Part shown: one piece after another, positions 5,299 through 58,406 of the stretch
Numbering within the stretch: position 1 is the stretch's first letter
How the letters are laid out: each line of letters opens with the position of its first letter
Assembly (NCBI GenBank): GCA_963627995.1
Contig: CAVGCV010000010.1
Span: forward strand, 954-64,953
Reading direction: 5' to 3'
Length of the DNA stretch: 64,000 nucleotides
Source: a bacterium
GTDB lineage: Bacteria; Bacteroidota; Bacteroidia; Bacteroidales; Bacteroidaceae
The notes under the pieces: generated by a model
Seen by the model: the letters and a program-made list of their open reading frames with translations, nothing else
Told to the model about the DNA's origin: nothing
The model's database searches: none
Made by a program: the position numbers and the translations under genes

Positions 5299-5318
5299 GA
5301 AAAATGGCGTGAGTTTTG

Positions 5319-5565: not shown

Positions 5566-5676
5566 AAAAACACTGCGGAGAAGCGTGGGAAATGTCCGCA
5601 GTGAAAACTTTTTTTGTCTGCGGAGAAAAATAATTTTGTCTGCGGAGCGCCGGGATTTTCTCTGCGGAGTTTTTTT
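5566..5676 (+). repeat. Copy 1 of the five-module 22-bp-phased CTGCGGAG intergenic element (module orientation F-R-F-F-F)
   Basis: AAAAACACTGCGGAG (5566-5580), TCCGCAGTG (5595-5603), then TCTGCGGAG at 5617, 5639 and 5661, followed by T7. Spacers are A/T mini-palindromes. Confidence 0.9.
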
Positions 5677-8075: not shown

Positions 8076-8114
8076 CACCCTGCTTCATCCCGAACATCCA
8101 ACCATCCCAAGCTC

Positions 8115-10670: not shown

Positions 10671-10719
10671 CCCGCGTGCGACACTTCAAACGACACAACG
10701 CAAGAAAAATGCAAGAACG

Positions 10720-12440: not shown

Positions 12441-12485
12441 AAAAGCTGTGGGGCTGTCAAAACGACACGGCCCCACAGCTTTTTC
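12441..12485. terminator. Hairpin terminator A (AAAAGCTGTGGGGC...GCCCCACAGCTTTTT) after the GH43-CBM6 gene
   Basis: 14-bp perfect stem flanked by A4 and T5, 33 bp after the stop at 12408. Related to the hairpin at 12799-12844. Confidence 0.75.
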
Positions 12486-12618
12486 TTGTTTCCGATGCAA
12501 GCAGAAACGCGAGAAAGGTGCACACGGCTGCGCAAGGCAACGTTCTTTCCGCTTGCGGGATTCGCTCGCTTTTCGGCTTTTGTAAGCCATTGAAAAATAG
12601 AGTGTTGTGCGTTTCTGT

Positions 12619-12728
12619 AAAAACACTGCGGAGCGCGTGTCTTTTCTCTGCGGAGGAAATGGCTTTCGTCCGCAGAGAAAAACTTTTTTCTCCGCAGTGT
12701 CTTTTCCGCCGCTCCGCAGTGTTTTTTT
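12619..12728 (+). repeat. Copy 2 of the five-module CTGCGGAG element (F-F-R-R-R; nested perfect palindromes)
   Basis: Cores at 12625, 12647, 12669, 12691 and 12713, exactly 22 bp apart. Outer 17-bp inverted repeat 12619-12635 / 12710-12726. Inner 13-bp inverted repeat 12642-12654 / 12669-12681. Confidence 0.9.
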
Positions 12729-12798: not shown

Positions 12799-12844
12799 AA
12801 AAGCTGTGGGGATGTGCCAGAACGACACATCCCCACAGCTTTTT
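12799..12844. terminator. Hairpin terminator B (AAAAGCTGTGGGGATGTG...CACATCCCCACAGCTTTT) after the SusD gene
   Basis: 18-bp perfect stem, 9-nt loop, A/T tracts on both sides, 26 bp beyond the minus-strand stop at 12870. Confidence 0.75.
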
Positions 12845-12869
12845 GAATGGTGAGAGCGCTTTCTTTACT

Positions 12870-17900: not shown

Positions 17901-18275
17901 GCTGCTGTAAATGGCTGCGTCGGGAGCGGCGTTCCCGTCAAATGCGATTTGCAGGTCGTTGTATTCCGGGACGGTCACGTAAAGCGATGTGACAAATACG
18001 GGGACTTTGAGCGTGTAGCGTCCGTCCTCTCCCGTCATGGTGGAGTATCGTCCGTCGTTGAATGCTTGCACGCGCGCCCCATCAACGGGCTGCTTTGTTG
18101 CGGCGTCATAGACGAACCCGCTCACCTCTTTCATCTCGTACTTGGGAGCTCGGGACGTGCGTGGTCGCTCTGTAACGGTGCTGTCGGTTGATTCTTGGGC
18201 CAAGAGTGCGATGGAACTTGACAGCAATAGAACGGCTGCCGTGGCTCTCATAGGGCTTTGGGCTATGTTGAACAT
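14967..18275 (-). CDS. SusC/RagA-family TonB-dependent outer-membrane transporter (distal pair)
   Basis: 1102 aa. CarboxypepD_reg-like N-terminus (VSGFVYDAATKQPVDGARVQAF...GRYTLKVP), plug region (AMFIRGLSSINLNAQPLIILDG), and long beta-barrel. Confidence 0.9.
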   Translation of the reverse strand: MFNIAQSPMRATAAVLLLSSSIALLAQESTDSTVTERPRTSRAPKYEMKEVSGFVYDAATKQPVDGARVQAFNDGRYSTMTGEDGRYTLKVPVFVTSLYVTVPEYNDLQIAFDGNAAPDAAIYSSKLKGFYQPKTSITAHKAATINMSSAISIDSDIEKALGGDIHTINRTGLQGQGAAMFIRGLSSINLNAQPLIILDGMMMDMQLDRTSIHEGFFNNVLAGIDPEDVESVEVLKNATALYGARGGNGVVIINTKRGRSMATKINVSLFGGFELAPSYTKMMNGNQYKNYLNEIIGTTEYGQKNATAAYSIPFLNDNPDYYWYPMYHHNTDWSDGLYRTAFTQNYKVNVQGGDDVAKYSLSLGYANANATAKENDFSRLNIRFNTDIKLVQNLETQIDVTYSRLSYNLRDNGWAESYGESTIASPNVLGLIQAPFLSKYSYYKGDDFKLHQSSVYAGKYVNDDNYPFSFASRFGNNTALANPYWILANGDGDNKNNQEVTQFNLNIMPKWEINKHLNVTNRFAYQLNRTNEKYYLPEAGTPIYNLEGLGEVTSVVKSFFGKETAIYEDLRINWQANYGAHNAEAFGGFRFTRNTYSDNYMTGYKTGNDKMPDMKNSLRFRSVEGTNDEWCNLAYYAHGAYNFKNTYFASATLSAEASSRFGKFTSEGIKMFGVKWGIFPSLQLGWVLSNEKWMQKAKGINHLKLTLGYDESGNDAIPYSVSRTYFQSSSFLQKATALQLVNIENPEIQWETTRRFNAALAGSFLNNRIQAGVDFYVANTSNLLTLKANNYLTGLDAYWTNGGKLRNVGADVHVNAIVINNKNFNWQLGASVGHYKNKIISLPEGDYTTNIYGAEIQTAVGQPVGVFYGYKTNGVFSSYEEASHAYNGNDFLKYPTGIKNNPYKNFSAGDVRFVNLNDEDGLGVINEADKTIIGDPNPDIYGNIYTSFNYKRWTLAFNFKYSLGNDIYNYQRSQLESLNGFYNQTIAAVNRWTVDNQVTDIPRACATTSDDWVNNERFSDRWIEDGSFLKLKNVRLSYELPINLSWIQGLTVWAESNDLFTISRYTGTDPEFSCGNSVLYQGIDTGMLPLNRSFNVGVKINL

Positions 18276-18353
18276 AATGGAGGGTTGTTATTTGGGGAGA
18301 GAAAAAGGCTTCTCTCTGGTTTTTCACTTCTGTTGATGGTCGTAAGGATGCGT

Positions 18354-20159
18354 TTACTCCTCTTCGCTGATTTTCGGCACGAGTACGATTTTCTCGATGA
18401 GCAGCTCGTTGGTGTAGAGGTTTCTCTCGCTGCTGGGGCGATAAGACTGGAGGGTCAGCGTGGCGTATGCATAATCGGACAGGCCGTAGTAGCACACGGG
18501 AAACTCGAAGTCCTTGGCCAGCAGCACGCTGTCGCAGTAATGGAATTGGTTGTTTTCATCCACGTAGGGCTCTTTCGTATAAAAGTCTCTCGCCTTTGTC
18601 GTGGGGTCTGTGTACAAAACCTCATTTTTAGTCTTGCTGGATGTCCCGTCATGGTAGGTCATGGTCGCACGAAGGCGGTAGGGCCGCTTTTCGTCGTTGT
18701 TGTAGGCCATGACGGCATAGACGTCATATTTGCAAGAGAGTGTGTTGTGGAGAGCGAACGTGACGGTGTTGTTGACTGTGTAGTTCGCACCCGGCGCTTT
18801 CAGAACAGAGATTCTAATCACGGTGTCGCGAGGTGTGACGATTGTCTTTTCTACCCCGTCTTGCATGACTTGTTCTTTGATGTAGTATGTGTATTTTACA
18901 TTGAGGCGTTGTACACTTGGTCTGATGCATCGGCTATATGTCTCACAATAGTATGCGTTGTAAACTTTTTCTTGTGCCCAAGTGTCCTCTGGTGAAAAGT
19001 TGTAATTGTCCACCACATAGGCATAGCCGTTGCTAAGGACGACGGGTTCGACCTTGTCAAACAGCCTTGCACTTTGAGGGTCTTGGAACACCTTGCCGAC
19101 AGTGTTGGTCAAAGAGTCGCATTTCCCCTCTTGCGAAAAGTCCGTATATGAATGCCCGTATTGCTCGTTCACGTTGAATGTTAAGTTGCGCGTGATGACG
19201 TCTTTCACATTGTATCCCGTGATGGAGTCCAATTCTGCATCCGAGAATTTCTTGGTTCTTGTCTCCTTTGTCTCTGTTCCGTCGGACGCAATGGATGTGA
19301 CGACGCTCTGTGAATATTCGGGCATATACTTGTAATACTTCGCAATTTCCTCGTATGCGGCATCCCATGCCTTGTTGGTGGGCATAACCATTGCATAGAG
19401 ACTGTCCTCGCGATTGAGATGGGCTCTCATCTCGTTGGTAAGGTAAGTGTTCCTGATGGTCGTTACCGAGTCGACCCATGTGATGTTTCCGTCGATGGTG
19501 GGTCCTTGGGTGCTGGCGTCTTCATCGAAAGCAAGCTCTTCGTTCTCTTTGATGAATGCGTTCAGCGAGTCGATGCCCTGGCCGTCAGAAAGGTATTCGT
19601 AGAGATTGGGCTGGTATTCGATCGCTCCGTCCGTGACGTGGAGAACCCCATTCGATGTGCCGATGTTGTGTTGAATAATCTTTTGCCCTTTTATGGTGGC
19701 GTTCCCGCAATCAAAGACGGCTGTCTTGCTGTTGAAGAGGGCAAGCTGTGTGGCATTCCCACCCATGAGCAGATGGCTGAAACGTGTCATGCAATTTCGA
19801 ATGAGTTCTTTTTCAACCTTATAGGCGCTCGACTGCGTCTTGTCGTTGAGCAGGGCGTTCCATCTCTCGTAATCGAATGTGCCGTTTTGAGGTACCCACA
19901 AGGTGAATACCTGGTCGTGATTCAGCAAATCAGCATACGTCTGTGACGTTGTGCTTCCTTCCGATTTTGAATAATGGACTCTCGACAGAATGTCGGCAAA
20001 CTCACTGAGATTTTTTTGCGAGGATATATTCTCCCACAAGGTGGTGCGTCTGGCAACCTCGGGGTCGATGGTGAAATGGTCGTCGGAGCAAGACTGGCCG
20101 CAGAGCATGGATGCTGCCAAAATTGTGCCTGTGCACCATTTGAAAAAACTTTTATTCAT
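18354..20159 (-). CDS. Fasciclin (FAS1) domain lipoprotein
   Basis: 601 aa. Signal plus lipobox (MLCGQSCSDD). FAS1-like signatures NLSEFADILSRV...VFTLWVPQNGTF...SNGVLHVTDGAIEYQP. Confidence 0.75.
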   Translation of the reverse strand: MNKSFFKWCTGTILAASMLCGQSCSDDHFTIDPEVARRTTLWENISSQKNLSEFADILSRVHYSKSEGSTTSQTYADLLNHDQVFTLWVPQNGTFDYERWNALLNDKTQSSAYKVEKELIRNCMTRFSHLLMGGNATQLALFNSKTAVFDCGNATIKGQKIIQHNIGTSNGVLHVTDGAIEYQPNLYEYLSDGQGIDSLNAFIKENEELAFDEDASTQGPTIDGNITWVDSVTTIRNTYLTNEMRAHLNREDSLYAMVMPTNKAWDAAYEEIAKYYKYMPEYSQSVVTSIASDGTETKETRTKKFSDAELDSITGYNVKDVITRNLTFNVNEQYGHSYTDFSQEGKCDSLTNTVGKVFQDPQSARLFDKVEPVVLSNGYAYVVDNYNFSPEDTWAQEKVYNAYYCETYSRCIRPSVQRLNVKYTYYIKEQVMQDGVEKTIVTPRDTVIRISVLKAPGANYTVNNTVTFALHNTLSCKYDVYAVMAYNNDEKRPYRLRATMTYHDGTSSKTKNEVLYTDPTTKARDFYTKEPYVDENNQFHYCDSVLLAKDFEFPVCYYGLSDYAYATLTLQSYRPSSERNLYTNELLIEKIVLVPKISEEE

Positions 20160-20199
20160 ATTGGTCTTGTTTTATCGTAGGGAAATAAGATTTCTTCCT

Positions 20200-22257
20200 T
20201 TACCATTTGTCTTCGGCGACATCCCCATTGTAAATGGACTTGGGAACCAGCTCGAGATAGTCATAGAAGAACTGCGTCTCACTGCTGGAAAGGACGGACT
20301 TGAAACGTATGTAATAGGTCTCTCCGGCATTGAGTTGTCCGGTGAAGATGATTCGGCGTATGCAGTTCTGGTAATTTCGTCCTGGAACTCCTGACGCGGG
20401 GCAGAAGTATTTCGGGCCTTTCATGTAGCTGTTGTTGCGCATTTGCTTGTCAAGTTCGTTGATGGCTTCGTCGGAGCCCAATTCTGCGTCGCTTTTCCAT
20501 CCCACCAAGGGACTGTTGCCGCTGATGCGCAGGTCGAGAGGGATTCCGATGGCTGGCAGGTTGTTGGGGTTTGTTCCGACATACACCTGCGCCATGCCGC
20601 GATTGCCGTTGGCATTGATTCCATATCGGATTTCATAAGTGCCGGTGTAAGGAACAGGGGGGAGTTTCATGACAAAGTCGTATTTTCCACGGATGTTGAA
20701 CTCGTCCGACTGGTAGTTGTCCCACGAGCCTGCACCGCCTGACCCGTTCTTGTTGGGCAGATAGCCGAACACCGTGTTTTGCGACATGGAGGGGATGTTC
20801 TCAAAATAGGTTGCGGGGAAGTACCAGTTGTTCGTGCGATTGAGACGGCATCCTGCGGAAATCATTTCGGGAAGCAAGGAGCAGATGTCGTACCGCATTC
20901 GCTCATTCAGCACTTTGGTTGGAACGTCTTCCGTCCAAAGCAAGAGGTCGTTGATGGGGAAGTAGTATCCGTTCAGCGCATTGTTGTCGTGTGTGCCGTT
21001 GGTTTGGTTAATCGCAATGCCCTCGATGGACACCTGCGACGCAATCTCGCGGTAGTTGGAAAGATTGTATGCGGAGCAGCGGTTGATTCGTTTCTGGTTA
21101 TTGCGGATTCCTGTGATTTTTATGCTGCGGCGATGTTTCCCGATGGTTTCCCAATATTCCCATACATTGACGCGGAACTGCTTTCCGTCGTTCAGCTTTC
21201 CATTGTAGAACCCATACTCGTTCGACCATGTCACCATGTTGCTCCAATCAAGTCCGACGCGCAAGATATGATAGGCGACGAATTGGTTGATGGCATTGTC
21301 CTCACTTTCGTAGTCATCGCCGTAGCTGGTGTTTTCATCGTAGTAGGCGTTATCGCGAAGATAGCCTTTCAGCGACTCTATGTCGGTGATACCCTTCGCG
21401 TTGAACACCGAGTCGGTTTCCACGAACATCGTGTATTTCAAATAGCGATGAAGGGGATACATCCCGGAAAGACCTGCATCGGAGGGATGGGTATAAGCTG
21501 TTCCTGCAATCTTCACCCCATTCCATTCAATTTCATCATAGTCATAGTCGCGGTAGTCGGTCAGTTTCCTTTCCCAGCCGGTCAGCCGTAAAAGACTGCC
21601 GAAGAACTGCGTGTTTTCCGTGCTCTGTACAAGGTCTCCAACCGTTGCGTTTGAGGGCGAAATCACCTTGTTGATGGTATGGATATACCCATTCTCGACC
21701 TCGATGTCTTTCTCGATGACTTTCGAATAGTTGTTGATGTAAATTTCGGTCGCCCCCGTCTCGTCGTTCCCGTAGGTCACCCGAATAGGGCGGTCGTTCA
21801 TGTTGTTGGTTGGCATGGGGTCGTCGAAAGACGTTGAGGCGTAGGCCGTGTTGTTCTCTGTGTCAATGATGCTGTTGAAGACAATTGCCTCGGCAACAGA
21901 GTCGGTGATGGTCTCCAAAGACGGCGACGCAATCGTTCCAATCTGGTAAAGCGAGTCCAAATACTCCTGGATGGCGTCGTTGGTCGGTGCGAAGCAGGTG
22001 TAGTGTCCACGGGCAGAAAGAAGCTCGTGCATGGTGGACACGGAGTGTGCGCTTGGATGAACCCTGTCAAGAATCTGAAGATAGCTGCTGAACGTATTGG
22101 GATTATTGACGAAATGGTCTATCATCATTTCACCCGTGAACGTATAGAGGTCGCTGTCGTCGATGTTCTCCTTGCAGCTGTTGAGGCTGATGCAAGATGC
22201 AACCGCAAGCATCATGCCGCAGACCACTTGTCTGTTGAATATATTCATGTGTTTCAT
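20200..22257 (-). CDS. Fasciclin (FAS1) domain lipoprotein
   Basis: 685 aa. Lipoprotein signal (LAVASCISLNSCKEN). FAS1 signatures FSSYLQILDRV...YTCFAPTNDAIQEYL...NGYIHTINKVISPS. Confidence 0.75.
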   Translation of the reverse strand: MKHMNIFNRQVVCGMMLAVASCISLNSCKENIDDSDLYTFTGEMMIDHFVNNPNTFSSYLQILDRVHPSAHSVSTMHELLSARGHYTCFAPTNDAIQEYLDSLYQIGTIASPSLETITDSVAEAIVFNSIIDTENNTAYASTSFDDPMPTNNMNDRPIRVTYGNDETGATEIYINNYSKVIEKDIEVENGYIHTINKVISPSNATVGDLVQSTENTQFFGSLLRLTGWERKLTDYRDYDYDEIEWNGVKIAGTAYTHPSDAGLSGMYPLHRYLKYTMFVETDSVFNAKGITDIESLKGYLRDNAYYDENTSYGDDYESEDNAINQFVAYHILRVGLDWSNMVTWSNEYGFYNGKLNDGKQFRVNVWEYWETIGKHRRSIKITGIRNNQKRINRCSAYNLSNYREIASQVSIEGIAINQTNGTHDNNALNGYYFPINDLLLWTEDVPTKVLNERMRYDICSLLPEMISAGCRLNRTNNWYFPATYFENIPSMSQNTVFGYLPNKNGSGGAGSWDNYQSDEFNIRGKYDFVMKLPPVPYTGTYEIRYGINANGNRGMAQVYVGTNPNNLPAIGIPLDLRISGNSPLVGWKSDAELGSDEAINELDKQMRNNSYMKGPKYFCPASGVPGRNYQNCIRRIIFTGQLNAGETYYIRFKSVLSSSETQFFYDYLELVPKSIYNGDVAEDKW

Positions 22258-22261
22258 GAGC

Positions 22262-24070
22262 TTAATTTGTTTCGTCGATTCTTGAAGTGTTCTTTGACGT
22301 CTCCCACACCTCGTTTTGGTGAAGTAGCGTGTTGTTCCTCATCTGGTAGGTGTAGATGGGGGAGAAGAGCGACTTCATGGAGGCCAGTTTCGCCATGACC
22401 GCTTTCTTGTTGTCGTTGTATTTCCTAATGAGAAGTGTCAGCATCTCAACCGTGTTGCCTCGACGTTGTGCATAACGGACGAGGTCGAACCATCGCTTCC
22501 CCTCGCCAAAAAACTCGCGCTGGCGTTCAGCCATGACCAGGGACTCGATGCCATCGGGCGTGTTGAATGCTTCAAAGTTGAGCGAGTCTGCAGCCGCTGG
22601 TTTGTTGAGGTAGGCATAGGGGTTGGAGCGTCTGAACACTTCGCGCACCAAGGCGAAAGCCTCTTTCAAGTGTTCTTCGTCAGAGTAGAGTTGGCTCATG
22701 GCCTCGGCCTTCATCAGTACGACATCGCTTAGTCGATAGACAATCCAGTTGGCGGAGTTGGGGAGAGAGCGAGTGGTCGAAGTTGCCGAGATCGCATTGT
22801 TGTCGTTCATGCCCGACCCGCTTGTGCTCGTTTGCCAATAGTGGGAATAGGTGTATTTTGCCATGGGGAAGTCCGTTTGGTCTGCTCCCGTGTAGCGCGC
22901 GGTCTCCCATTTTCTGTAATCTGTTTTTGTGAACACGTGCCCGGGGATAGGGGCATTGGGGCTTTCATCAACGCCCTCTATGATGTTGTTGGAGCAAACC
23001 AATGTCCCGCTCTTCACTTCCTTGATGTTCCAAAAAAGACTGGTCAGCATGGTGTTGGCGTCGTTTGTCCCGTCTAATTGGAGCTCGAAGATACTTTCGC
23101 GTGAGTTGCCTGTTCCAAAAATGGACGTATAAGGGGTTTCGCCATCGAGATACCCATACGTCGAGGCGGATGAGGCGTTCTGTATGAACAGGTCGCTCAA
23201 AGAAACCTCATCCACTCCGCCAATGACTTGGCCGCTTTTGTTGATGGATTTCTTGTAGTCTGCCAACATCTGTTCAATCACCCAGTCGCAGCATTCCACG
23301 CATTTCTGGTAGTCTTCTTCGGCAGGCGACCCCTTGGCCTCCGACATTCCAGCCTTGTAGCTGGCGCGCCAAAGATACACATCGGCCAGCAGCGTATAGA
23401 CCGACTTTTTGGTAATCCGACCTTTGTTCTTGGCGTTGGTGCCGTAGTCGTTCATGGCGATGTCCTTGGCTTCCTCCAAGTCCATGATGATGCTGTCGAG
23501 TACTTCTATTTGTGTGGATTGGGGCAGGCGTAGGTCCTGGCCATTGTTGTTGTAGTCGATGGTGACGTAGGGGATTTCCCCAAACGTGCGGACGAGGTAG
23601 AAATGGCTGAGGGCTCGCAAAGCCAACATCTCGGCTTTGATGGGCTTCCAGTCGCCGACAGAGAAACTTTCATCTTTTGCGATAATTGCATCCCCATGGG
23701 CGAGCACCTTGTTGCAATAGTTGATTTCATTGTAGAAGTCCGTCCAGTCGAACATTCCGTTGGTCGGGAGCAGGTTGGCGTTCATGAGGTTGGTCACATC
23801 GTTGTTGGTGACTCCCGAGTTCTTCTCGAAGTTGTCGGAGCGCATCTCCCCCCACTGAATGTACTTCACGAGCAAGTCCTCTTTGACGAGGCGGCCATAA
23901 CAGGCGTTCACAGTGTTCAGAAGGTCGTTCTTGTCCTCCCAATAGTCTTCCTCCACAATCCTGTTGGTCGGCGTAATGGTGAGGAAGTCTTCGCAGGAAC
24001 AGAGTGTGGCATTTGCGGCCACAGCCATTGTTCCATAGAGGAATATGTTTTTTATGCTATGATACTTCAT
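22262..24070 (-). CDS. SusD/RagB-family outer-membrane lipoprotein (proximal pair)
   Basis: 602 aa. MKYHSIKNIFLYGTMAVAANATLCSCEDFLTITP lipoprotein start. YWEDKNDLLNTVNACYGRL and WGEMRSDN blocks are typical of SusD-like proteins. Directly follows a SusC gene. Confidence 0.9.
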   Translation of the reverse strand: MKYHSIKNIFLYGTMAVAANATLCSCEDFLTITPTNRIVEEDYWEDKNDLLNTVNACYGRLVKEDLLVKYIQWGEMRSDNFEKNSGVTNNDVTNLMNANLLPTNGMFDWTDFYNEINYCNKVLAHGDAIIAKDESFSVGDWKPIKAEMLALRALSHFYLVRTFGEIPYVTIDYNNNGQDLRLPQSTQIEVLDSIIMDLEEAKDIAMNDYGTNAKNKGRITKKSVYTLLADVYLWRASYKAGMSEAKGSPAEEDYQKCVECCDWVIEQMLADYKKSINKSGQVIGGVDEVSLSDLFIQNASSASTYGYLDGETPYTSIFGTGNSRESIFELQLDGTNDANTMLTSLFWNIKEVKSGTLVCSNNIIEGVDESPNAPIPGHVFTKTDYRKWETARYTGADQTDFPMAKYTYSHYWQTSTSGSGMNDNNAISATSTTRSLPNSANWIVYRLSDVVLMKAEAMSQLYSDEEHLKEAFALVREVFRRSNPYAYLNKPAAADSLNFEAFNTPDGIESLVMAERQREFFGEGKRWFDLVRYAQRRGNTVEMLTLLIRKYNDNKKAVMAKLASMKSLFSPIYTYQMRNNTLLHQNEVWETSKNTSRIDETN

Positions 24071-34126: not shown

Positions 34127-34234
34127 AAAACACTGCGGAGCGGCTGGAAAATGTCCGCAGAGCGGAGACCCGCGCTCCGCAGAGAAAATGTTTTTCCTCT
34201 GCGGACGAAAAATATTTTCTCTGCGGAGATTTTC
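34127..34234 (+). repeat. Copy 3 of the five-module CTGCGGAG element (F-R-R-F-F)
   Basis: AAAACACTGCGGAG (34127-34140). Cores at 34132, 34154, 34176, 34198 and 34220, all 22 bp apart. Confidence 0.9.
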
Positions 34235-40844: not shown

Positions 40845-40952
40845 AAAAACACTGCGGAGGAAAGTCCCGCGCTCCGCAGAGAAAATATATTTTGTCTGCG
40901 GACGAAAAATATTTTCTCTGCGGACGTTTTTTCGCTCCTCCGCAGTGTTTTT
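40845..40952 (+). repeat. Copy 4 of the five-module CTGCGGAG element (F-R-F-F-R; 17-bp perfect terminal inverted repeats)
   Basis: Cores at 40851, 40873, 40895, 40917 and 40939, all 22 bp apart. GAAAAACACTGCGGAGG (40844-40860) is the exact reverse complement of 40937-40953. Confidence 0.9.
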
Positions 40953-47329: not shown

Positions 47330-49528
47330 ATGAAAGGTGAAACTATGACCAAAGTGACTAAAAACCTGTCCCTGCAAGAGGCTCTAAAATATTATTTTGG
47401 TTTTGACACGTTCAAGGGCGATCAGGCGAAAATCATCCAATGCCTGCTTGATGGCCATGACACGTTCGTGCTGATGCCGACGGGTGGCGGCAAGTCGCTG
47501 TGCTACCAGCTGCCGGCTTTGTTGATGGACGGAACGGCCATTGTCATCTCACCCCTGATTGCCTTGATGAAGAACCAGGTCGATGCCCTTAAACATTATA
47601 GCGAAGAGGACAGTGTCGCCCATTTCATCAACTCGTCTTTGAATAAGGGAAGTATTGAGCAGGTGAAGCAGGACGTGCTTTCGGGTAAGACGAAGCTCTT
47701 GTATGTCGCTCCCGAGTCGCTGACGAAAGACGAATACGTGGAGTTCCTGCGTGGCGTGAAAATATCATTCTATGCGATTGACGAGGCGCATTGCATCTCG
47801 GAGTGGGGGCATGACTTCCGCCCGGAGTACCGGAGGATACGTCCGATTATCAATGAAATAGGCGCAGCCCCCATCATAGCTCTGACGGCGACGGCTACGG
47901 ACAAGGTTCGTGCCGACATCAAAAAGAATCTTGGAATTGTTGATGCCGTGGACTTTAAGTCCTCGTTCAACCGCCCCAACCTCTATTACGAGGTGCGCCC
48001 CAAGACGAAGGACGTGGATAAGGAGGTCATCAAGTTCATCAAACAGAACGAGGGGAAGAGTGGCATCATCTATTGCCTTAGTCGGAAAAAGGTGGAAGAG
48101 CTTGCGGGCATATTGCAGGCGAACGAAATCAAGGCGACGGCCTATCATGCGGGCCTTGATGCGACAACGCGCTCGCAGGCGCAGGACGACTTCATCATGG
48201 AGCGAACCGATGTGATTGTCGCGACGATAGCGTTTGGCATGGGCATTGACAAGCCCGATGTGCGGTTTGTCATACATTATGACATTCCCAAAAGCCTGGA
48301 GGGGTATTATCAGGAAACCGGGCGCGCGGGGCGCGATGGCGGTGAGGGCAAGTGCGTTGCTTTCTTTACCCGCAAGGACCTCCAGAAACTGGAGAAGTTT
48401 ATGGAGGGAAAGCCTATCGCGGAGCAAGACATAGGCCGCCAGCTGTTGCGGGAAACGGCCAACTATTGTGAGTCGTCGGTTTGCCGTCGGAAATTACTGC
48501 TCCATTATTTTGGGGAGAACTATGAGCCCGACAATTGCGAGAATTGCGACAACTGCCTGTATCCCAAGAAAAAGGTGGAGGCAAAAAATGAGCTGCTGCT
48601 GCTGCTGAAAACCATTGCTGCTGTCAAGGAAAAATTCAAGACAGAGTATATCATCGACATCCTTATGGGCCATGAAACTGAAACCATCTTGGCTCATAAG
48701 CATGACAAGCTGGAGATGTTTGGCGAGGGTAGTGACGTGGAGGAAACCATGTGGACTGCGGTCGTCAATCAAGCCATGCTGTCAGAGTATGTCAAAAAGG
48801 ATGTCGAGAACTATGGGATTCTGAAAGTAACCAAGGACGGAGCAAAGTTCATGAAAAAGCCGATTTCCTTCTTGGTGAAAGAAGACAACGACTTTGACGA
48901 CGAATACGACATCATGGATGGCGATGGGGACGGCGGTGTGGACAAGGTGCTTTATGGAATGCTGATTGATTTGAGGAAGTCTTTGTCGAAGAAACTGCAA
49001 ATTCCGCCCTATGTGATTTTCCAGGACAACTCTCTTGAGGCCATGTCCACTTTCTATCCGATTTCGCTGGAGGAGCTACAGAACATTCCGGGGGTAGGTG
49101 TGGGAAAAGCCAAGCGCTATGGGTCTGAATTTTGCGAGTTGATTAAGCGCCATTGCGAGGAAAACGAAATTGAACGTCCAACGGATATGCGTGTGCGGAC
49201 TGTTGCCAACAAGTCGAAAATCAAGGTGAGCATCATTCAGAGCGTCGATAGGCAGGTGGCTCTCGACGACATCGCCCTGATGAAGGGCATAGAGTTTAGC
49301 GAGGTGCTTGACGAAATAGAGGCGATTGTGTATAGCGGCACCAAACTGAACATCGACTATTTCTTGGACGAGGTGATGGATGAAGACCGCATTGAGGACA
49401 TTTATGAGTATTTCCGAGAGAGTGAAACCGATGACCTAGAAACTGCCATGGAGAGCCTTGACGAGGACTATACCGAGGATGAGGTGCGTTTGGTGAGAAT
49501 CAAGTTTATTTCGGAAATGGCAAATTGA
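47330..49528 (+). CDS. recQ: ATP-dependent DNA helicase RecQ
   Basis: 732 aa. YFGFDTFKGDQ, MPTGGGKSLCYQLPA, DEAHCISEWGHDFRPEY, zinc-binding CRRK..C..CDNC, C-terminal HRDC region. The start could be 47345. Confidence 0.95.
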   Translation: MKGETMTKVTKNLSLQEALKYYFGFDTFKGDQAKIIQCLLDGHDTFVLMPTGGGKSLCYQLPALLMDGTAIVISPLIALMKNQVDALKHYSEEDSVAHFINSSLNKGSIEQVKQDVLSGKTKLLYVAPESLTKDEYVEFLRGVKISFYAIDEAHCISEWGHDFRPEYRRIRPIINEIGAAPIIALTATATDKVRADIKKNLGIVDAVDFKSSFNRPNLYYEVRPKTKDVDKEVIKFIKQNEGKSGIIYCLSRKKVEELAGILQANEIKATAYHAGLDATTRSQAQDDFIMERTDVIVATIAFGMGIDKPDVRFVIHYDIPKSLEGYYQETGRAGRDGGEGKCVAFFTRKDLQKLEKFMEGKPIAEQDIGRQLLRETANYCESSVCRRKLLLHYFGENYEPDNCENCDNCLYPKKKVEAKNELLLLLKTIAAVKEKFKTEYIIDILMGHETETILAHKHDKLEMFGEGSDVEETMWTAVVNQAMLSEYVKKDVENYGILKVTKDGAKFMKKPISFLVKEDNDFDDEYDIMDGDGDGGVDKVLYGMLIDLRKSLSKKLQIPPYVIFQDNSLEAMSTFYPISLEELQNIPGVGVGKAKRYGSEFCELIKRHCEENEIERPTDMRVRTVANKSKIKVSIIQSVDRQVALDDIALMKGIEFSEVLDEIEAIVYSGTKLNIDYFLDEVMDEDRIEDIYEYFRESETDDLETAMESLDEDYTEDEVRLVRIKFISEMAN

Positions 49529-51145
<1,617 letters not shown>

Positions 51146-51346
51146 TTGGTGCTGATGTGCGGCTATAGGCGGACATTTGCGTTGGGAAGCCATGTGGTGT
51201 AGATGTCGCCGTGATGTCTGCGTTCGGAATTGTTAAAAAACTCTTATATAGGTGGCTGTCAAAAAAACTGGCAGCCATTTATTGTTTTTTTGCGTAACTT
51301 CGCGACGTATTTGTTTTTGCGTATCAACAAAAAACACAATTGGAAA

Positions 51347-52768
51347 ATGAAAAGACTTAGCTTGGTGTCAGTAGGCTTGCTCTTTGGGATGAATGTCATG
51401 GCGCAAACGAATGCCGACCCAATTATCATGCGTATCAACAACATTCCGGTTACTCGATCCGAGTTCGAATATTCCTACAATAAAAACAATTCTGACGGCG
51501 TGCTCGACAAAAAGGGCGTAAAGGACTATGTCCCGTTGTTCATTGACTTCAAACTCAAGGTGGAGGCCGCAAAAGATGCGGGTATAGACACTCTCTCGTC
51601 CATTCGCACCGAATTGTATGGCTATCGTGAGCAGATGGTGATTCCAACGGTTGTGGATAGTGGCTACATTGAGCGCGAGGCTCGCAAGACCTACGACGAC
51701 ACGGCCGCTCGCTTTGGCGGCGAGGATTTGCTGAATGCCTCCCATATTTTGGTGCTGTTGCGCCAGGACGCCGATGAGTCGGAGGAGGTGAAAGCAAAAG
51801 CACGCATCGATTCCATCTACAAGGTGCTGAAGGACGGTGCAGACTTTGCAGACGTGGCCAAAGCTTGCTCCGACGACAAAGGGTCGGCTGCGCGCGGTGG
51901 GTTGCTCGGGCAGTTTGGCAAGGGAATGATGATTCCTGATTTCGAAAAAGCCGCTTATGCGATGCAGTCTGGCGAGATGTCCGCTCCAGTTAAGACGACA
52001 GTGGGGTGGCACATCATCAAAATGAACGACCGGCATCCGTTTGAACCTTATGAATACCACCGTTCCAATATCATCAAGTTTCTTGAACAACGTGGCGTGC
52101 GGGATATGGCGGCCAATGCTTACATTGATTCCCTCGCACGGCAAGGTGGTGTAGAACGCCAGGCGGTGGTCGATAGCTTGTTCGGAGCACTCGTTGCGCG
52201 CGATGCGGAGTCGAAAAATCTTGCCCAAGAATATTATGACGGGACGCTCATGTATGAGATTTGTAAGGCGCAGATTTGGGATAAGGCCGCGAAAGATTCT
52301 GATGGCATGGCGGCCTATTTCAAGGCCAACCGTGCGAAGTACGCATGGACAGAGCCTCGTTATCGTGGAATTGTGATTCATGCTAAAGATGCCGCAGCCG
52401 TAAAACGGGCAAAGAAAGTCATCAAGGGGGTAAATGAAGACGAGTGGTCGAAGACTATTGTCGAGGCTCTCAATAATGATTCTGTTAAACTCGTCCGTGT
52501 GGAGCGTGGACTTTACAAAAAAGGCGAGAATAAAGCAATAGACAAATTTGTGTTCAAGACTGTTACAGCCTACGAAGGGATGAAAGACTATCCTGCTACG
52601 GCCGTTTGTGGCAAGAAGCTCAAACAGCCACAAACATACATGGATGTGCGCGGTCAGGTGGCCACGGATTATCAAACGGAGCAGGAAAAGCGTTGGGTGG
52701 AGACGCTCCGTCAGAAATATACGTACAGCGTGGACGACTCCGTACTGGAGACTGTCAATAATCATTGA
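51347..52768 (+). CDS. Periplasmic peptidyl-prolyl cis-trans isomerase (parvulin/PpiC-type, SurA/PpiD-like)
   Basis: ORF trimmed to MKRLSLVSVGLLFGMNVMAQ (ATG 51347). Parvulin block ASHILVLL...GGLLGQFGKGMMIPDFEKAAYAM..GEMSAPVKTTVGWHIIK. 473 aa. Confidence 0.88.
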   Translation: MKRLSLVSVGLLFGMNVMAQTNADPIIMRINNIPVTRSEFEYSYNKNNSDGVLDKKGVKDYVPLFIDFKLKVEAAKDAGIDTLSSIRTELYGYREQMVIPTVVDSGYIEREARKTYDDTAARFGGEDLLNASHILVLLRQDADESEEVKAKARIDSIYKVLKDGADFADVAKACSDDKGSAARGGLLGQFGKGMMIPDFEKAAYAMQSGEMSAPVKTTVGWHIIKMNDRHPFEPYEYHRSNIIKFLEQRGVRDMAANAYIDSLARQGGVERQAVVDSLFGALVARDAESKNLAQEYYDGTLMYEICKAQIWDKAAKDSDGMAAYFKANRAKYAWTEPRYRGIVIHAKDAAAVKRAKKVIKGVNEDEWSKTIVEALNNDSVKLVRVERGLYKKGENKAIDKFVFKTVTAYEGMKDYPATAVCGKKLKQPQTYMDVRGQVATDYQTEQEKRWVETLRQKYTYSVDDSVLETVNNH

Positions 52769-52775
52769 ATTTGAA

Positions 52776-54143
52776 ATGAAAATATTAAGAGGTCTTGCAC
52801 TTGTGTTGCTCATGCCCCTTTCGCTGGCTTGGGGATGGGCGCAGGATAATGTGATTGACGAGGTTATTTGGGTGGTGGGAGAAGAAGCCATTTTGAAATC
52901 CGACGTAGAGCAGGCGCGTATTGAGGCACAAGTGCAAAGACAACATTTGGCTGGTGATCCTTACTGCGTTATCCCTGAACAGCTGGCCATTCAAAAATTG
53001 TTTCTTCATCAGGCCGCCATCGATAGTATTGAGGTGACTGACAGTGAAGTACTGCAGAAAGTAGAGGAGCAGATGGACTACTATGTTCAAAAGATCGGCT
53101 CGAAAGAGAAAATGGAGGAGTATTTCGGACGAACGTCGTCGCAGATACGGGAACAGCTTTTCCAGCGTGTCAAGGAGGAAATGATTATCAGCGAGGTGCG
53201 CCTTAAGCTGGCGGGCGACTTGAAAGTGACACCAGCACAAGTGCGTCGCTACGTTAAGGAACTCCCCGAGGACAGCTTGCCTTTCATCCCAACTCAACTT
53301 GAGGTGCAGATTCTTGTGCGCAAACCAGTGGTCGCGCCGGCGGAGATAGAGCGTGTGAAGAACGAACTCCGTGACTACACCGAACGTGTGAATTCTGGCC
53401 AATCGCAGTTCTCGACGCTGGCACTGCTTCATTCCGAAAATCGCGAGACGGGAGCGCGTGGTGGAGAATGGGGCTTTACGGGACGGCGGCTGCTTACTCC
53501 CGAGTTTGCGTCTGTTGCGTTCAATCTCACCGACCCCAAGACCGTGTCGAAGATAGTGGAGGATGAGTATGGCTTCCACATCATACAACTGATTGAGAAA
53601 CGAGGCGATCGCGTGAATGTTCGTCACATTTTGCGCAAACCGCGTGTGAGCGATGCCGAACTCACCGCTTGCTTGAATCAGATGGATAGTATCCTTGCCT
53701 ACGTCACCGACAACAAGTGTACATTTGAAGAGGCTGTGACCAACACGTCTCAAGACCCCGATACCAGGGCCAACTATGGTATCATGGTGAATAAGAATGA
53801 GGAAAGCTCTCTCTATGGAACTCCGCGTTTTGAAATGAAAGATTTGCCGACGGAAGTTGCCCGGGCTGTGGCCAATCTTAAAACGGGGGAAACTTCCAAA
53901 GCCTTTGTCATGGTGGATAAGAACGGCAAAGAAGTGGTTGCAGTCGTTAAGTTGCGCAATCGTGTCAATGGGCATCGTGCGACCATGCGTGACGACTATC
54001 AGGCGTTGCAAAATGCTTTGCTCGATAAACTTGGAGAGGAAAAAACAGACGAATGGATACGCAAAATGCAGAAAACCACCTACATCCGTATCAATGAAGA
54101 CTGGAAAAACTGTGAATTCCGTTATCCTGGCTGGGTGAAGTAA
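52776..54143 (+). CDS. SurA-like periplasmic chaperone / parvulin-type PPIase
   Basis: ORF trimmed to MKILRGLALVLLMPLSLAWGWAQ (ATG 52776). SurA_N-like region followed by a parvulin block (VQILVRKP...GGEWGFTGRRLLTPEFASVAF...YGFHIIQLIEKR). 455 aa. Confidence 0.85.
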   Translation: MKILRGLALVLLMPLSLAWGWAQDNVIDEVIWVVGEEAILKSDVEQARIEAQVQRQHLAGDPYCVIPEQLAIQKLFLHQAAIDSIEVTDSEVLQKVEEQMDYYVQKIGSKEKMEEYFGRTSSQIREQLFQRVKEEMIISEVRLKLAGDLKVTPAQVRRYVKELPEDSLPFIPTQLEVQILVRKPVVAPAEIERVKNELRDYTERVNSGQSQFSTLALLHSENRETGARGGEWGFTGRRLLTPEFASVAFNLTDPKTVSKIVEDEYGFHIIQLIEKRGDRVNVRHILRKPRVSDAELTACLNQMDSILAYVTDNKCTFEEAVTNTSQDPDTRANYGIMVNKNEESSLYGTPRFEMKDLPTEVARAVANLKTGETSKAFVMVDKNGKEVVAVVKLRNRVNGHRATMRDDYQALQNALLDKLGEEKTDEWIRKMQKTTYIRINEDWKNCEFRYPGWVK

Positions 54144-54312
54144 TTGGATGTTTGTGTGGACGGGTGGCTCGTGGTGCAGGATTTGTGGTTTTTAGCATCA
54201 ATCCGTAATGTGTTCAGCGGCCTCGATGTGGCGATGTAGTGAAAAGACTTTCTTTTCACGGCGATTCTTGATTTTTCTTTTTGCGCGACCGTTGTGAACG
54301 GACAGGGATAAA

Positions 54313-55965
54313 ATGGAAAAAAATAAAAGAACGACGACAAGATGCAGTACGAGGCTGCTTTTCAGTCTCGCATTGCTTTTGTTTTCTGTGGCAGCCGTGG
54401 CTGTGATGCCGGATAAGCGTCCGCGTCGCTCTCCTACGGACAAGCGCATTCATCTTATCCACAGCGATGTACTCTATAAGAATTGGGAAGATCCACGCGC
54501 GGAGGTGCTGGTGGGCCATGTGCAGCTTAGCCACGAAGGCGTGTTCATGGACTGCGATAGCGCCAAATTCTATCGTGAGGATAATTCTTTCGACGCTTTT
54601 GGTAATGTGCGCATGATGCAAGGCGACACGCTGAAACTGTTTTGTGACACGCTCTATTACGATGGCTTCGAGATGCGGGCGCGCGCCCGGGGAAAAGTCG
54701 TCATGCATCACAAAAAGACACGCCTTGAAACTGAAAATCTTGACTACGACCGCGCTTATGGCGTGGGCATGTATATGGATGGCGGCACGCTCTACGACGC
54801 TGACAACGTGCTGGTGTCCGACTGGGGGCAATACACGCCGTCGGCGCACGAGGCGTTTTTTACTGACAATGTACATCTGACCAACCCCCGCTTTTCGCTT
54901 GTCTCAGATACCCTTTTTTATTATACGGACACGGAGCGGGCGCGCATCCTTTCGCCCACCAATATTACTTCGCACGACGGCACTTTCGTTTACGGCATTC
55001 GTGGCGACTACGACACGAAGTCGGGAAAGGCAAGTCTGATGGACCGCTCGTACATTATCAAGGACATGCGGCGCATCGAGGGGGACAGCCTCTACAGCGA
55101 CAAGGAAACAGGGGTGGACGAGGCTTTTGGCCATGTCGTCCTGACCGACGAGGAGAACGATTGCAAGCTGACGGGAAACTATTGCAAGTATTTCGAACAG
55201 ACGGGCGATGCCGTGGCGACGGACAGCGCGGTCGTCTATGAGTATTCGTCGGGCGACACGCTGTATGTGCACGCCGACACCCTGAAGATGTTTACGTTTA
55301 ACCTTGGCACGGACTCCGTGACGCGCAACCTCCATGCCTACCATCATGTGCGGATGTACCGCACCGATGTGCAGGGCGTGTGCGATTCTTTGGTCACCAT
55401 CCAGCACGACTCTTGCACCTACATGTATGGACAGCCCATTCTTTGGAACGACGAACAGCAGGTGTTCGGCGAGGAAATTCGCATCTACAACAATGATAGC
55501 ACCATCGACTGGATCCACATCATCAACCAGGCCATGACGGTGGAGCGGAAGGACTCCGTCTCCTTCAACCAGGTGGCGGCGCGTGAGATGTTCTGCTACT
55601 TTCGTGGCGGCGAGATAGAGCGGAACGAGGCGCATGGCAATGTCTATGTGGTTTATTTCATTGACGAGGACGATGGCTATCGCATCGGGATGAACTATAC
55701 GGAAACCACCGACATGAAGATGTACATGGCCAATCGGAAGGTGGAGCGAATATGGATGCCTACGTCGTCAGGCACGATGTTCCCCGACTTGAAAATACCC
55801 TCGGACAAACGCTACCTCGCTGGCTTCGCGTGGTTCGACTACATACGCCCCCGTGACAAGCACGACATCTACGAATGGCGGGCGAAGGACAGCAAGAATG
55901 TCCTGAAGAAGACAGCTCCGCGCACAGTCCCGTTGCAGAAGCTCGGCGATGTCGGGCGTGATTGA
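54313..55965 (+). CDS. OstA-like (LptA/LptD N-terminal-like) repeat protein
   Basis: 550 aa. N-terminal membrane anchor or signal. Repeated beta-jellyroll-like segments (IHLIHSDVLY...GHVQLSHEGVFMDCDSAKFYREDNSFDAFGNVRMMQGDT...). Sits next to SurA-like genes, consistent with an envelope-biogenesis context. Confidence 0.7.
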   Translation: MEKNKRTTTRCSTRLLFSLALLLFSVAAVAVMPDKRPRRSPTDKRIHLIHSDVLYKNWEDPRAEVLVGHVQLSHEGVFMDCDSAKFYREDNSFDAFGNVRMMQGDTLKLFCDTLYYDGFEMRARARGKVVMHHKKTRLETENLDYDRAYGVGMYMDGGTLYDADNVLVSDWGQYTPSAHEAFFTDNVHLTNPRFSLVSDTLFYYTDTERARILSPTNITSHDGTFVYGIRGDYDTKSGKASLMDRSYIIKDMRRIEGDSLYSDKETGVDEAFGHVVLTDEENDCKLTGNYCKYFEQTGDAVATDSAVVYEYSSGDTLYVHADTLKMFTFNLGTDSVTRNLHAYHHVRMYRTDVQGVCDSLVTIQHDSCTYMYGQPILWNDEQQVFGEEIRIYNNDSTIDWIHIINQAMTVERKDSVSFNQVAAREMFCYFRGGEIERNEAHGNVYVVYFIDEDDGYRIGMNYTETTDMKMYMANRKVERIWMPTSSGTMFPDLKIPSDKRYLAGFAWFDYIRPRDKHDIYEWRAKDSKNVLKKTAPRTVPLQKLGDVGRD

Positions 55966-56009
55966 GGCTGCCGACCCAATGTGTTGTCCGAACTTAAACC
56001 AAAGGAAAC

Positions 56010-58294: not shown

Positions 58295-58406
58295 AAAAAA
58301 ACACTGCGGAGGGGGCCGGAAAACGTCTGCGGAGAAAATAATTTTTGTCCGCGGACGAAATGTATTTTGTCCGCGGAGCGCGGGACTTTTCTCTGCGGAG
58401 TTTTTT
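58295..58406 (+). repeat. Copy 5 of the five-module CTGCGGAG element (all five modules direct, F-F-F-F-F)
   Basis: AAAAAAACACTGCGGAG (58295-58311). Cores TCTGCGGAG 58326, TCCGCGGAC 58348, TCCGCGGAG 58370, TCTGCGGAG 58392, exactly 22 bp apart, followed by T6. Confidence 0.9.

What the first reader, a model, noticed from the sequence alone, without database searches (positions are those of the whole stretch)
58295..58406. Dispersed ~110-bp intergenic element built from five 22-bp modules (core TCTGCGGAG); five copies in 64 kb
Seen directly: five regions share one architecture (5566-5676, 12619-12728, 34127-34234, 40845-40952, 58295-58406). Each begins on the + strand with A(4-7)CACTGCGGAG. Each contains exactly five copies of a 9-mer core [T/A]C[T/C]GCGGA[G/C] or its reverse complement (CTCCGCAGA / CTCCGCAGTG). 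Core start positions are 22 bp apart, for example 58326/58348/58370/58392, 12625/12647/12669/12691/12713, 34132/34154/34176/34198/34220 and 40851/40873/40895/40917/40939. Copies 1 and 5 have a single 23-bp first step. The 13-bp spacers are A-tract/T-tract mini-palindromes (GAAAAATATTTTC, AGAAAATATATTTTG, GAAAAATAATTTTG), so A/T tracts recur every two helical turns. All copies are intergenic but in different contexts: divergent promoters (5.6, 34.1, 40.9 kb), a convergent terminator zone (12.6 kb) and a co-directional gap (58.3 kb). All five share the same strand polarity of the first module. Inference: this is a REP/MITE-like family or an array of phased protein-binding sites on one DNA face, possibly on intrinsically bent DNA. 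I do not recognise it as any named element, and five copies per 64 kb would extrapolate to hundreds per genome.
Basis: seen in the sequence. Interest (0 to 1): 0.8.

Follow-up and report, generated by a model that had tools for sequence, protein, structure and literature searches.

The report
Modular palindromic intergenic repeat in Bacteroidales
The five ~110-bp repeats are real: they form a previously undescribed, species-fixed family of non-coding palindromic repeats of the REP/MITE kind, each built from five 22-bp hairpin-forming modules, in an uncultured high-GC gut or rumen-type Bacteroidales bacterium. This is an interesting but not revolutionary addition to known bacterial intergenic repeats.

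Summary
There are five copies, each with five cores whose centres are exactly 22 bp apart, and this is far beyond chance (5 matches against 0 in shuffles).

Each copy reads A-run, then five quasi-palindromic cores (S-W-CTGCGGA-S or its complement) separated by 14-nt spacers, then a T-run. The inner spacers are A/T palindromes. The outer spacers are half GC-rich and half A/T-tract. The unit is itself a dyad (9-nt arm, 4-nt centre, 9-nt arm = 22 nt), so a whole copy folds into one long hairpin (z-scores -4 to -11).

By spacer architecture, copies 1 and 5 are inverted relative to copy 4, and core orientation is uncoupled from spacer orientation.

All five sites are occupied and nearly identical in about ten strains of the same species (99% nucleotide identity). 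The window contains no transposase. I found no target-site duplication, and no match in Rfam, plasmids, phages, viral contigs or JGI metagenomes. Arrays built on the same 22-bp unit (TCTGCGGACGAAAnnnTTTCG) occur in other Prevotellaceae-like genome bins.

My best reading is a REP/BIME- or MITE-like modular repeat whose phased cores are recognition sites for a trans-acting protein. Copy 5 probably doubles as the mutL terminator. How the family spread is inferred, not shown. The genome-wide copy number remains untested.

The parts
58295..58406 (.). Copy 5, the finding itself. A7 (58295-58301); terminal core CACTGCGGAG (58302-58311); cores at 58326, 58348, 58370 and 58392 (8-mers TCTGCGGA, TCCGCGGA, TCCGCGGA, TCTGCGGA); T6 (58401-58406). 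It lies 54 bp after the mutL stop (58241). The + strand RNA hairpin followed by a U-run looks like the mutL terminator.
   Evidence: + strand -51.4 kcal/mol, z -5.4; - strand -37.9; orthologous copies in 10 strain contigs
5566..5676 (.). Copy 1. Core states + - + + +; first step 23 bp; 79% identical to copy 5 over 110 nt. It sits between the divergent GH2 (-, start 5298) and an unknown + gene (start 6021).
   Evidence: (D2)
12619..12728 (.). Copy 2. Core states + + - - -, with perfect 17-bp terminal inverted repeats AAAAACACTGCGGAGCG / CGCTCCGCAGTGTTTTT. It lies between the convergent GH43 (stop 12408) and SusD (stop 12870), inside a pair of separate terminator hairpins.
   Evidence: (z -6.9 / -9.2)
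34127..34234 (.). Copy 3. Core states + - - + +. Its modules 2-5 correspond to modules 1-4 of copy 4, and its first module is the inverted complement of copy 4's last module. It sits between the divergent GH (-, start 33906) and lpxD (+, 34487).
   Evidence: (D1 83%, I10 83%)
40845..40952 (.). Copy 4. Core states + - + + -. This is the most perfect whole-element palindrome: core 1 pairs with core 5, core 2 with core 4, and core 3 forms the apex. It sits between the divergent nitroreductase (-, start 40615) and NTP-transferase (+, 41170).
   Evidence: (-69.9 kcal/mol, z -10.6)

Best explanation
This is a lineage-specific family of non-coding, non-autonomous repeats of the REP/BIME or palindromic-MITE kind.

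Structure (shown): the building block is a 22-bp quasi-palindrome, with a 9-nt arm ending in ..TC, a 4-nt centre TGCG, and a 9-nt arm starting GA... Five blocks are joined head to tail between an A-run and a T-run. Because each block and each inner spacer is a dyad, the element can extrude as one long hairpin or cruciform, or as a row of small hairpins. The invariant cores sit exactly two helical turns apart.

Mechanism (inferred): the cores are phased recognition sites for one trans-acting protein. The most likely candidate is the transposase that once spread the element. An HUH/Y1 (RAYT/IS200-type) enzyme acting on single-stranded hairpins would fit the absence of target-site duplications. 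The copies are now static and fixed in the species.

Side effects depend on where a copy landed (inferred). Copy 5 supplies the hairpin-plus-U-run terminator for mutL. Copies in divergent promoter regions sit at least 218 bp from start codons and are probably near-neutral.
For: Repeat status and intergenic position.

Common descent rather than convergent sites: similarity extends through the spacers (79-85% over 86-110 nt between some copies).

Conserved termini: AAAAACACTGCGGAG occurs at 7 of 10 ends, and copies 2 and 4 have 15-17-bp terminal inverted repeats.

Strong whole-element hairpins: z -3.9 to -10.6.

Constraint on cores and phasing: six core positions are invariant in 25 of 25 cores. 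Spacers are 14 nt in 18 of 20 cases although their A-runs and T-runs vary between 3 and 7 nt, and although the GC-rich outer spacers are unrelated in sequence and lie in the internal loop of the predicted whole-element hairpins (copies 1 and 4), not in a stem.

No functional coherence among neighbouring genes.

Copy 2 lies between two independent terminators, so it is not needed there as a terminator.

The same 22-bp unit forms 3-6-module intergenic arrays, several per genome, in other Prevotellaceae-like bins of similar GC (L011, L032, L038).

Five independent k-mer-based assemblies break at the same base inside copy 5. A second near-identical module elsewhere in the genome would explain this.

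Bacteroidota are known to be rich in genus-specific MITEs (PMC11602168). They also carry RAYT subclass 2.6 genes flanked by 'atypical secondary structures' that recur in the genome (PMC6006769).
Against: No transposase or RAYT-like ORF is present in the 64-kb window or in the related loci.

I found no target-site duplication under any boundary. The A-run and T-run are part of the palindrome.

There is no presence/absence polymorphism among strains at 99% identity, so mobility is not demonstrated.

Copies are only 63-85% alike, which is unlike a recently active MITE.

Three of five copies lack true terminal inverted repeats.

Copy number beyond these five is unknown.
Confidence: 0.55

Rival explanations
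1. Host-function array. The five cores are operator-like sites for a host DNA-binding protein (a nucleoid-associated, topology-related or global regulatory protein). The protein would bind cooperatively on one face of the helix, helped by phased A/T tracts. On this view the arrays are kept by selection in place rather than being relics of transposition.
For: Cores are invariant and the 22-bp phasing is strict, even where spacers are unrelated in sequence and unpaired in the hairpin model. The TC-TGCG-GA core with a 22-23-bp period recurs in several Bacteroidales lineages with different spacers. All sites are conserved across strains. A second 22-bp-phased palindromic array with a different core (CCAAGTACTTGG) but the same GAAAAATATTTC spacer lies just outside the window, which shows that the layout is reused.
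Against: Flanking genes share no function. One copy sits in a non-promoter convergent zone between two terminators. Similarity extends through the spacers and includes element-like ends. Strain conservation at 99% identity is no greater than that of the flanks, so it is uninformative. The related arrays were selected by my own search pattern, so recurrence of the core is partly circular.
Confidence: 0.2
2. RNA-level element. The arrays are primarily transcribed structures, either bidirectional intrinsic terminators or mRNA-stabilising 3' hairpins. Each module would be a 9-bp stem capped by a C(UGCG)G loop, which belongs to the UNCG tetraloop family.
For: Layout: an A-run, a GC-rich hairpin, then a T-run on both strands. 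Copy 5 lies 54 bp after the mutL stop, with no other hairpin in that gap on reading the 53 nt. For copies 1 and 5 the + strand folds much better than the - strand (-44.7 vs -27.4 and -51.4 vs -37.9 kcal/mol), because mismatches are G-U on one strand. The same asymmetry appears in the related arrays. Core state is strongly coupled: T..G 15, C..A 8, C..G 2, T..A 0 (Fisher p = 4e-5). So 23 of 25 cores give a UGCG loop on one strand or the other. The module arithmetic 9+4+9 = 22 nt also fits.
Against: Three of five copies lie between divergent genes, at least 218 bp upstream of both starts, where a terminator has no obvious role. Copy 2 is bracketed by two dedicated terminators. The fixed 14-nt length of the unpaired outer spacers is not explained by RNA folding. 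The T..G/C..A coupling has another possible cause: both palindromic alternatives, CCGCGG and CTGCAG, are about 2-fold under-represented in the rest of the window (17 vs 32.6 and 11 vs 24.3). No transcription data are available.
Confidence: 0.15
3. Independent local minisatellites or chance. Each array arose in place by slippage of a 22-bp unit, with no shared origin or function.
For: Tandem 22-23-bp arrays containing CTGCGGA turn up in many unrelated genomes when 596 Gb is scanned.
Against: Five loci share the same ends, the same module count and homologous non-repetitive outer spacers. Modules within a copy differ too much for recent slippage. Shuffles give no matches.
Confidence: 0.03

Closest known systems
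REP / BIME clusters of Enterobacteria and Pseudomonas (mobilised by RAYT/TnpA-REP)
   Same: Short (about 22-35 nt) imperfect palindromic units. They are strictly extragenic and clustered at fixed spacings with units in either orientation. G-T/G-U mismatches mark unit orientation. No target-site duplication. Host roles can be co-opted (terminator, mRNA stabiliser, protein binding).
   Different: There is no unpaired GTAG or CGTC 5' tag (PMC3733652). No RAYT gene was found nearby. Every copy has a fixed five-unit format with specialised terminal modules and A/T-run ends. Three of five copies sit between divergent genes, which as I recall is not the usual REP position (most REPs lie after 3' ends of genes).
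Palindromic MITEs such as ERIC (Enterobacteria) and Correia/NEMIS (Neisseria)
   Same: About 100-150 bp, non-coding and intergenic. The whole element is an imperfect palindrome that folds as one long hairpin. Copies can act as terminators or processing sites depending on context.
   Different: Those elements have defined terminal inverted repeats in all copies and a TA target duplication (from my own knowledge). Here only 2 of 5 copies have terminal inverted repeats, there is no duplication, and the element has an internal 22-bp periodic build.
BrickBuilt MITE of Porphyromonas gingivalis (PMC4596501)
   Same: Found in a Bacteroidales host. It has a 22-23-nt tandem unit inside a dispersed intergenic element, is always intergenic, has a limited host range and occurs at tens of copies.
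   Different: BrickBuilt has 1 to 22.8 direct 23-nt repeats with no dyad symmetry described. [quoted passage not shown] It shows no sequence similarity to this element.
Multi-site transposon ends (Mu, Tn7) and plasmid iterons
   Same: Several protein-binding sites of about 22 bp at fixed phase. Copy 2's + + - - - pattern looks like a left end fused to a right end.
   Different: Mu and Tn7 make 5-bp target duplications and end in TG..CA (from my own knowledge), and neither feature is seen here. Iterons sit next to a rep gene and an AT-rich origin, and there is none here. This is an analogy of layout only.

Membership tests
REP/BIME (RAYT-associated) | Unit is a 20-40-nt imperfect palindrome, extragenic and multi-copy | tested here: met
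   22-nt dyad unit. The central module folds as a 12-bp stem with one internal mismatch, closed by a 4-nt loop, z -4.5. There are 25 units in five intergenic arrays.
REP/BIME (RAYT-associated) | Conserved unpaired 5' tetranucleotide tag (GTAG or CGTC) at the foot of the hairpin | tested here: not met
   No GTAG. CGTC occurs at only 6 of 25 cores, and there it lies inside the stem, not as an unpaired tag.
REP/BIME (RAYT-associated) | Cognate RAYT (HUH/Y1) gene flanked by the repeats somewhere in the genome | not testable with these tools
   None in the window or in the related Bacteroidales loci (Pfam). The rest of the genome could not be reached.
MITE (DDE-transposase derived) | Terminal inverted repeats | tested here: inconclusive
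   Repeats of 15-17 bp are present in copies 2 and 4 only. Copies 1, 3 and 5 end in the same orientation at both ends.
MITE (DDE-transposase derived) | Target-site duplication flanking the element | tested here: not met
   Flanks were read directly. The only near-match is TTCTGT / TTCTAT at copy 2. Nothing comparable is present at the other copies.
MITE (DDE-transposase derived) | Presence/absence polymorphism at orthologous sites, or a parent IS with the same ends | tested here: not met
   All five sites are occupied in every strain contig examined. No IS is present in the window. The strains are only about 1% diverged, so this test is weak.
BrickBuilt (P. gingivalis) | 23-nt direct repeats with leader and tail segments and IS5-like terminal repeats GAGACCTTTGCA | tested here: not met
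   The period is 22 bp, there are no leader or tail segments, and the ends differ.
Intrinsic (bidirectional) terminator | GC-rich hairpin followed by a T-run, placed at the 3' end of a transcription unit | tested here: inconclusive
   The sequence features are met on at least one strand in all copies. The position fits only copy 5, and loosely copy 2, which already has dedicated terminators on both sides. It does not fit copies 1, 3 and 4.
Rfam RNA families | Match at or above a family's gathering score | tested here: not met
   At gathering thresholds only three tRNAs matched. The permissive scans gave only generic miRNA-hairpin hits at 18-28 bits against thresholds of 44-114.
CRISPR array | Repeats separated by unique spacers of similar length, usually near cas genes | tested here: not met
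   The period is 22 bp with 14-nt conserved spacers, the same array recurs at five loci, and no cas genes are present.

The most novel reading that the evidence does not exclude
The TC-TGCG-GA core held at exactly two helical turns recurs in several Bacteroidales lineages with otherwise different spacers. On the most novel reading, it marks arrays bound by a conserved, still unknown DNA-binding protein, either a host factor or a domesticated transposase. That would be a Bacteroidales counterpart of the REP/BIME-gyrase/IHF system, organising or insulating intergenic DNA. The second array type with a different core but the same spacer would then be another client of the same scaffold.
Probability: 0.15. 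Interest if true: 0.7.

Novelty: new variant of a known kind. Interest (0 to 1): 0.4.

Why it matters
Intergenic repeats of uncultured Bacteroidales are almost undescribed, yet they break assemblies. Five independent assemblies stop at the same base inside copy 5. They also create spurious ORFs and can supply terminators or structured DNA next to polysaccharide-utilisation and housekeeping genes.

This family has an unusually regular, modular design, with invariant cores, strict 22-bp phasing and reshuffled modules. That makes it a tractable handle for finding the protein that recognises it. It is also a potential species marker. The five loci are fixed and near-identical across every strain contig I examined (contigs from more than 20 samples carry the flanking genes).

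Tried and rejected
1. Species-representative genomes, scan for the terminal motif plus two cores: 0 hits.
2. JGI metagenome scan: 8 hits, all chance, none an array.
3. Viral contigs, plasmids and phages: nothing.
4. Search of 5.8 billion predicted proteins with a concatenate of all six-frame translations of the five copies, hoping to catch spurious ORFs over other copies: no hit.
5. Walking outward with exact window proteins: LpxA, ParB and GH97 were not on record. Cluster variants worked instead.
6. The nearest other species (MutL 72% identical) has no such arrays within 18 kb. It carries a different repeat after mutL, so no 'empty site' comparison was possible.
7. RAYT motif scan (HUH ... 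YIxxNP) over all held DNA: only one cyanobacterial chance locus.
8. Bacteroidetes promoter idea (-7 TAnnTTTG, consensus from my own knowledge): by reading the spacers, the motif fits only one (copy 1), and the 22-bp period does not fit the -33/-7 spacing. Rejected.
9. DnaA-box idea: the best resemblance, TGTGGATGA, occurs only in related arrays, not in the window, and five dispersed arrays are not an origin. Rejected.
10. Cur/BT4338 22-bp operator: unrelated sequence.
11. CGTC-tagged REPs: different anatomy.
12. Similarity to the Tn7 end (GCGGACAAAATAG, recalled from memory): confined to one terminal site in Tn7. Treated as coincidence.
13. The simple terminator scan did not single out the elements.

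Full report
**Observation.** The five regions read exactly as described. CACTGCGGAG occurs 8 times against 0.10 expected. A pattern of three cores about 22 bp apart matches 5 times (in four of the five copies, copy 4 on both strands) against 0 in 100 shuffles. A relaxed scan for at least two cores at 21-23 bp finds only these five arrays in 64 kb. In the register N-C-Y-G-C-R-G-N, core starts are 22 bp apart in 18 of 20 steps. They are 23 bp apart in the first step of copies 1 and 5.

**Organism.** The window is a Bacteroidales chromosome segment with 50-69% GC. It carries polysaccharide-utilisation genes (SusC/D, GH2, GH43, GH97, GH115) and housekeeping genes (lpxD-fabZ/lpxC-lpxA, tig-clpP-clpX-recQ, mutL, parAB). 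The nearest named MutL relatives, at about 60% identity, are labelled Prevotellaceae or Bacteroidaceae.

**Anatomy.**
- Oriented to one state, the core is S-W-C-T-G-C-G-G-A-S, and six positions are invariant in 25 of 25 cores.
- The 8-mer is a quasi-palindrome. Its 'orientation' is carried only by positions 3 and 6 (and, more weakly, by the first base and the flanking bases). The counts are T..G 15, C..A 8 (the reverse complement of T..G), the perfect palindrome C..G 2, and T..A 0. This coupling is strong (Fisher p = 4e-5).
- Spacers are 14 nt in 18 of 20 cases. Their A-runs and T-runs vary from 3 to 7 nt, so the total length is conserved while its parts are not.
- Inner spacers are A/T palindromes of the form GAAAA-n-TTTTC. 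Outer spacers are of two unrelated kinds: gaaaGTCCCGCGc, and gTTTTTcGCnCC next to the terminal CTCCGCAGTG.
- By spacer architecture, copy 4, the reverse complement of copy 5 and the reverse complement of copy 1 are collinear (85% and 77% complementary). Copy 2 has one outer module inverted.
- Copy 3 is copy 4 shifted by one module, with copy 4's last module inverted at its left end (D1, I10).
Core state is also uncoupled from spacer orientation.
- Ends: AAAAACACTGCGGAG occurs at 7 of 10 termini. Copies 2 and 4 have 15-17-bp terminal inverted repeats. No direct target duplication is visible.

**Folding.** The unit is a dyad (9 + 4 + 9 = 22 nt) and so are the inner spacers, so a whole copy is an imperfect palindrome. 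As RNA the copies fold at -44.7 to -69.9 kcal/mol with z-scores of -3.9 to -10.6. In copies 1 and 4, core 1 pairs with core 5, core 2 pairs with core 4, and core 3 forms the apex. The other copies use different core pairings. The outer spacers lie in an internal loop in copies 1 and 4. For copies 1 and 5 the + strand is 14-17 kcal/mol more stable than the - strand, because same-state cores pair through G-U on one strand and C-A on the other.

**Context.** Gene calls from sister-strain contigs place copies 1, 3 and 4 in the middle of 550-720-bp divergent intergenic regions, 218-345 bp from each start codon. Copy 2 lies between convergent genes, each of which already has its own terminator hairpin (12441-12488 and 12799-12846). 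Copy 5 lies 54 bp after the mutL stop, with no other hairpin in that gap on reading the 53 nt. It plausibly serves as the mutL terminator. The neighbouring genes share no function. The window holds no transposase.

**Other strains.** Cluster variants of window proteins led to contigs of the same species at 99% nucleotide identity, drawn from more than 20 samples.
- All five sites are occupied and almost identical.
- The polymorphisms are few but informative. Core 3 of copy 5 is TCCGCGGA in some strains and TCTGCGGA in others, so core states change by single transitions. The window's 23-bp step in copy 5 is a private 1-nt insertion.
- No further copy lies in about 13 kb of extra flanking DNA.
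- Five k-mer-based (Logan) assemblies all stop at the same base inside copy 5. This suggests another near-identical module elsewhere in the genome.

**Other species.**
- The exact family is absent from the species-representative genomes, JGI metagenomes, viral contigs, plasmids and phages.
- A generic three-core scan found many chance hits. It also found intergenic arrays built on practically the same unit in Prevotellaceae-like genome bins of similar GC. Those arrays have 3-6 modules of TCTGCGGACGAAAAAAATTTCG, compared with the window's TCTGCGGACGAAAAATATTTTC, and occur several times per genome (L011, L032, L038).
- Looser relatives occur in Paraprevotella, Tannerellaceae and Parabacteroides bins. 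In those arrays all cores point the same way, and the UCUGCGGA strand folds better.
- The nearest other species (MutL 72% identical) lacks the arrays but has a different repeat after mutL.

**Interpretation.** Three features point to a dispersed repeat family of common descent rather than independently evolved binding sites or slippage products:
- element-like ends;
- similarity that runs through the spacers;
- unrelated gene neighbourhoods.

The invariant cores and the fixed 14-nt spacing hold even for outer spacers that are unrelated in sequence and unpaired in the whole-element hairpins. This points to recognition by a protein that reads phased sites on duplex or hairpin DNA. The most economical candidate is the transposase that spread the element. 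An HUH/Y1 enzyme would explain the lack of target duplications. Bacteroidetes RAYTs of subclass 2.6 are reported to be flanked by atypical structures that recur in the genome (PMC6006769). This step is inferred. No such gene was seen, and no insertion polymorphism was found.

A host-protein array and an RNA-level role remain open. The T..G/C..A coupling can be read in two ways. It could reflect selection for a C(UGCG)G loop of the UNCG type on one strand. It could instead reflect avoidance of the two palindromic hexamers CCGCGG and CTGCAG, which are both about 2-fold depleted in the rest of the window. I cannot separate these two readings.

**Comparison with known elements.** The closest known kinds are REP/BIME clusters, ERIC/Correia-type palindromic MITEs and the BrickBuilt MITE of P. 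gingivalis.
- Strict REP membership fails, because there is no GTAG or CGTC tag (PMC3733652).
- Strict MITE membership fails, because there is no duplication and terminal inverted repeats occur in only 2 of 5 copies.
- BrickBuilt membership fails on period, ends and leader/tail segments.
- No Rfam family matches, and literature searches found no description.

I therefore file it as a new variant of a known kind. I set interest at about 0.4. The regular modular design and the cross-lineage core are notable. However, lineage-specific MITE-like repeats are already known to be abundant in Bacteroidota (PMC11602168).

Noticed in passing
window 12441-12488 and 12799-12846: Two homologous terminator-type hairpins (AAAAGCTGTGGGG ... 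CCCCACAGCTTTTT, loops sharing AACGACAC). Each sits just after the stop of one of the convergent genes GH43 and SusD, and together they bracket copy 2. The motif occurs nowhere else in the window. It may be a small repeat family of its own or a local duplication.
   Followed up: partly
L089 13690-13770 (about 1 kb to the left of window position 1, same species): A different 22-bp-phased array. Three palindromic cores (CCAAGTACTTGG / CTAAGTACTTGA) are separated by the same GAAAAATATTTC-type spacer. The array lies at the centre of a GC-armed palindrome of about 250 bp, between a GH43 and a GH95 gene. It was seen at this one locus only, in six strain contigs. It could be an operator array or another modular palindrome.
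   Followed up: partly
L001, L072, L073, L075, L077 (contig ends): Five independent Logan assemblies of this species end at exactly the same base, the A of core 5 of copy 5, whereas SPAdes assemblies read through. The element breaks short-k assemblies.
   Followed up: partly
L064 11953-12390 and 17604-18126: In the nearest other species (MutL 72% identical, GC 0.50), the region after mutL carries an unrelated dispersed repeat. One 109-nt stretch is 96% identical between the two places, with further direct and inverted matching pieces. Different repeat families occupy similar intergenic spots in related Bacteroidales.
   Followed up: no
window, whole (elements masked): Palindromic hexamers are depleted relative to a maximal-order Markov expectation: GGCGCC 13 vs 38, CTGCAG 11 vs 24.3, CCGCGG 17 vs 32.6. 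The non-palindromic CTGCGG and CCGCAG are at expectation. This may be a trace of restriction-modification systems.
   Followed up: no
window 1-12000 versus 16000-24000 and 48000-56000: GC content ranges from 0.65-0.69 in the glycoside-hydrolase block at the left end to about 0.51 in the SusC/SusD-fasciclin block and the recQ-guaB-ppiC block. This is a large heterogeneity for one chromosome segment. In the high-GC part, long spurious ORFs cover both strands.
   Followed up: no
L010, L013, L049 (Ignavibacteria Bin_45), L002 (Saprospiraceae) and L012, L043, L054 (Parabacteroides bin): Long tandem arrays with about 22-23-bp periods contain CTGCGGA-type cores (for example GTCTGCGGAATCTGCGAGAGC repeated more than 10 times, and CCTCTGCGGAGG units). 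Several arrays occur per genome. I cannot tell whether they are related to the window's family or are coincidental minisatellites picked out by my search pattern.
   Followed up: no
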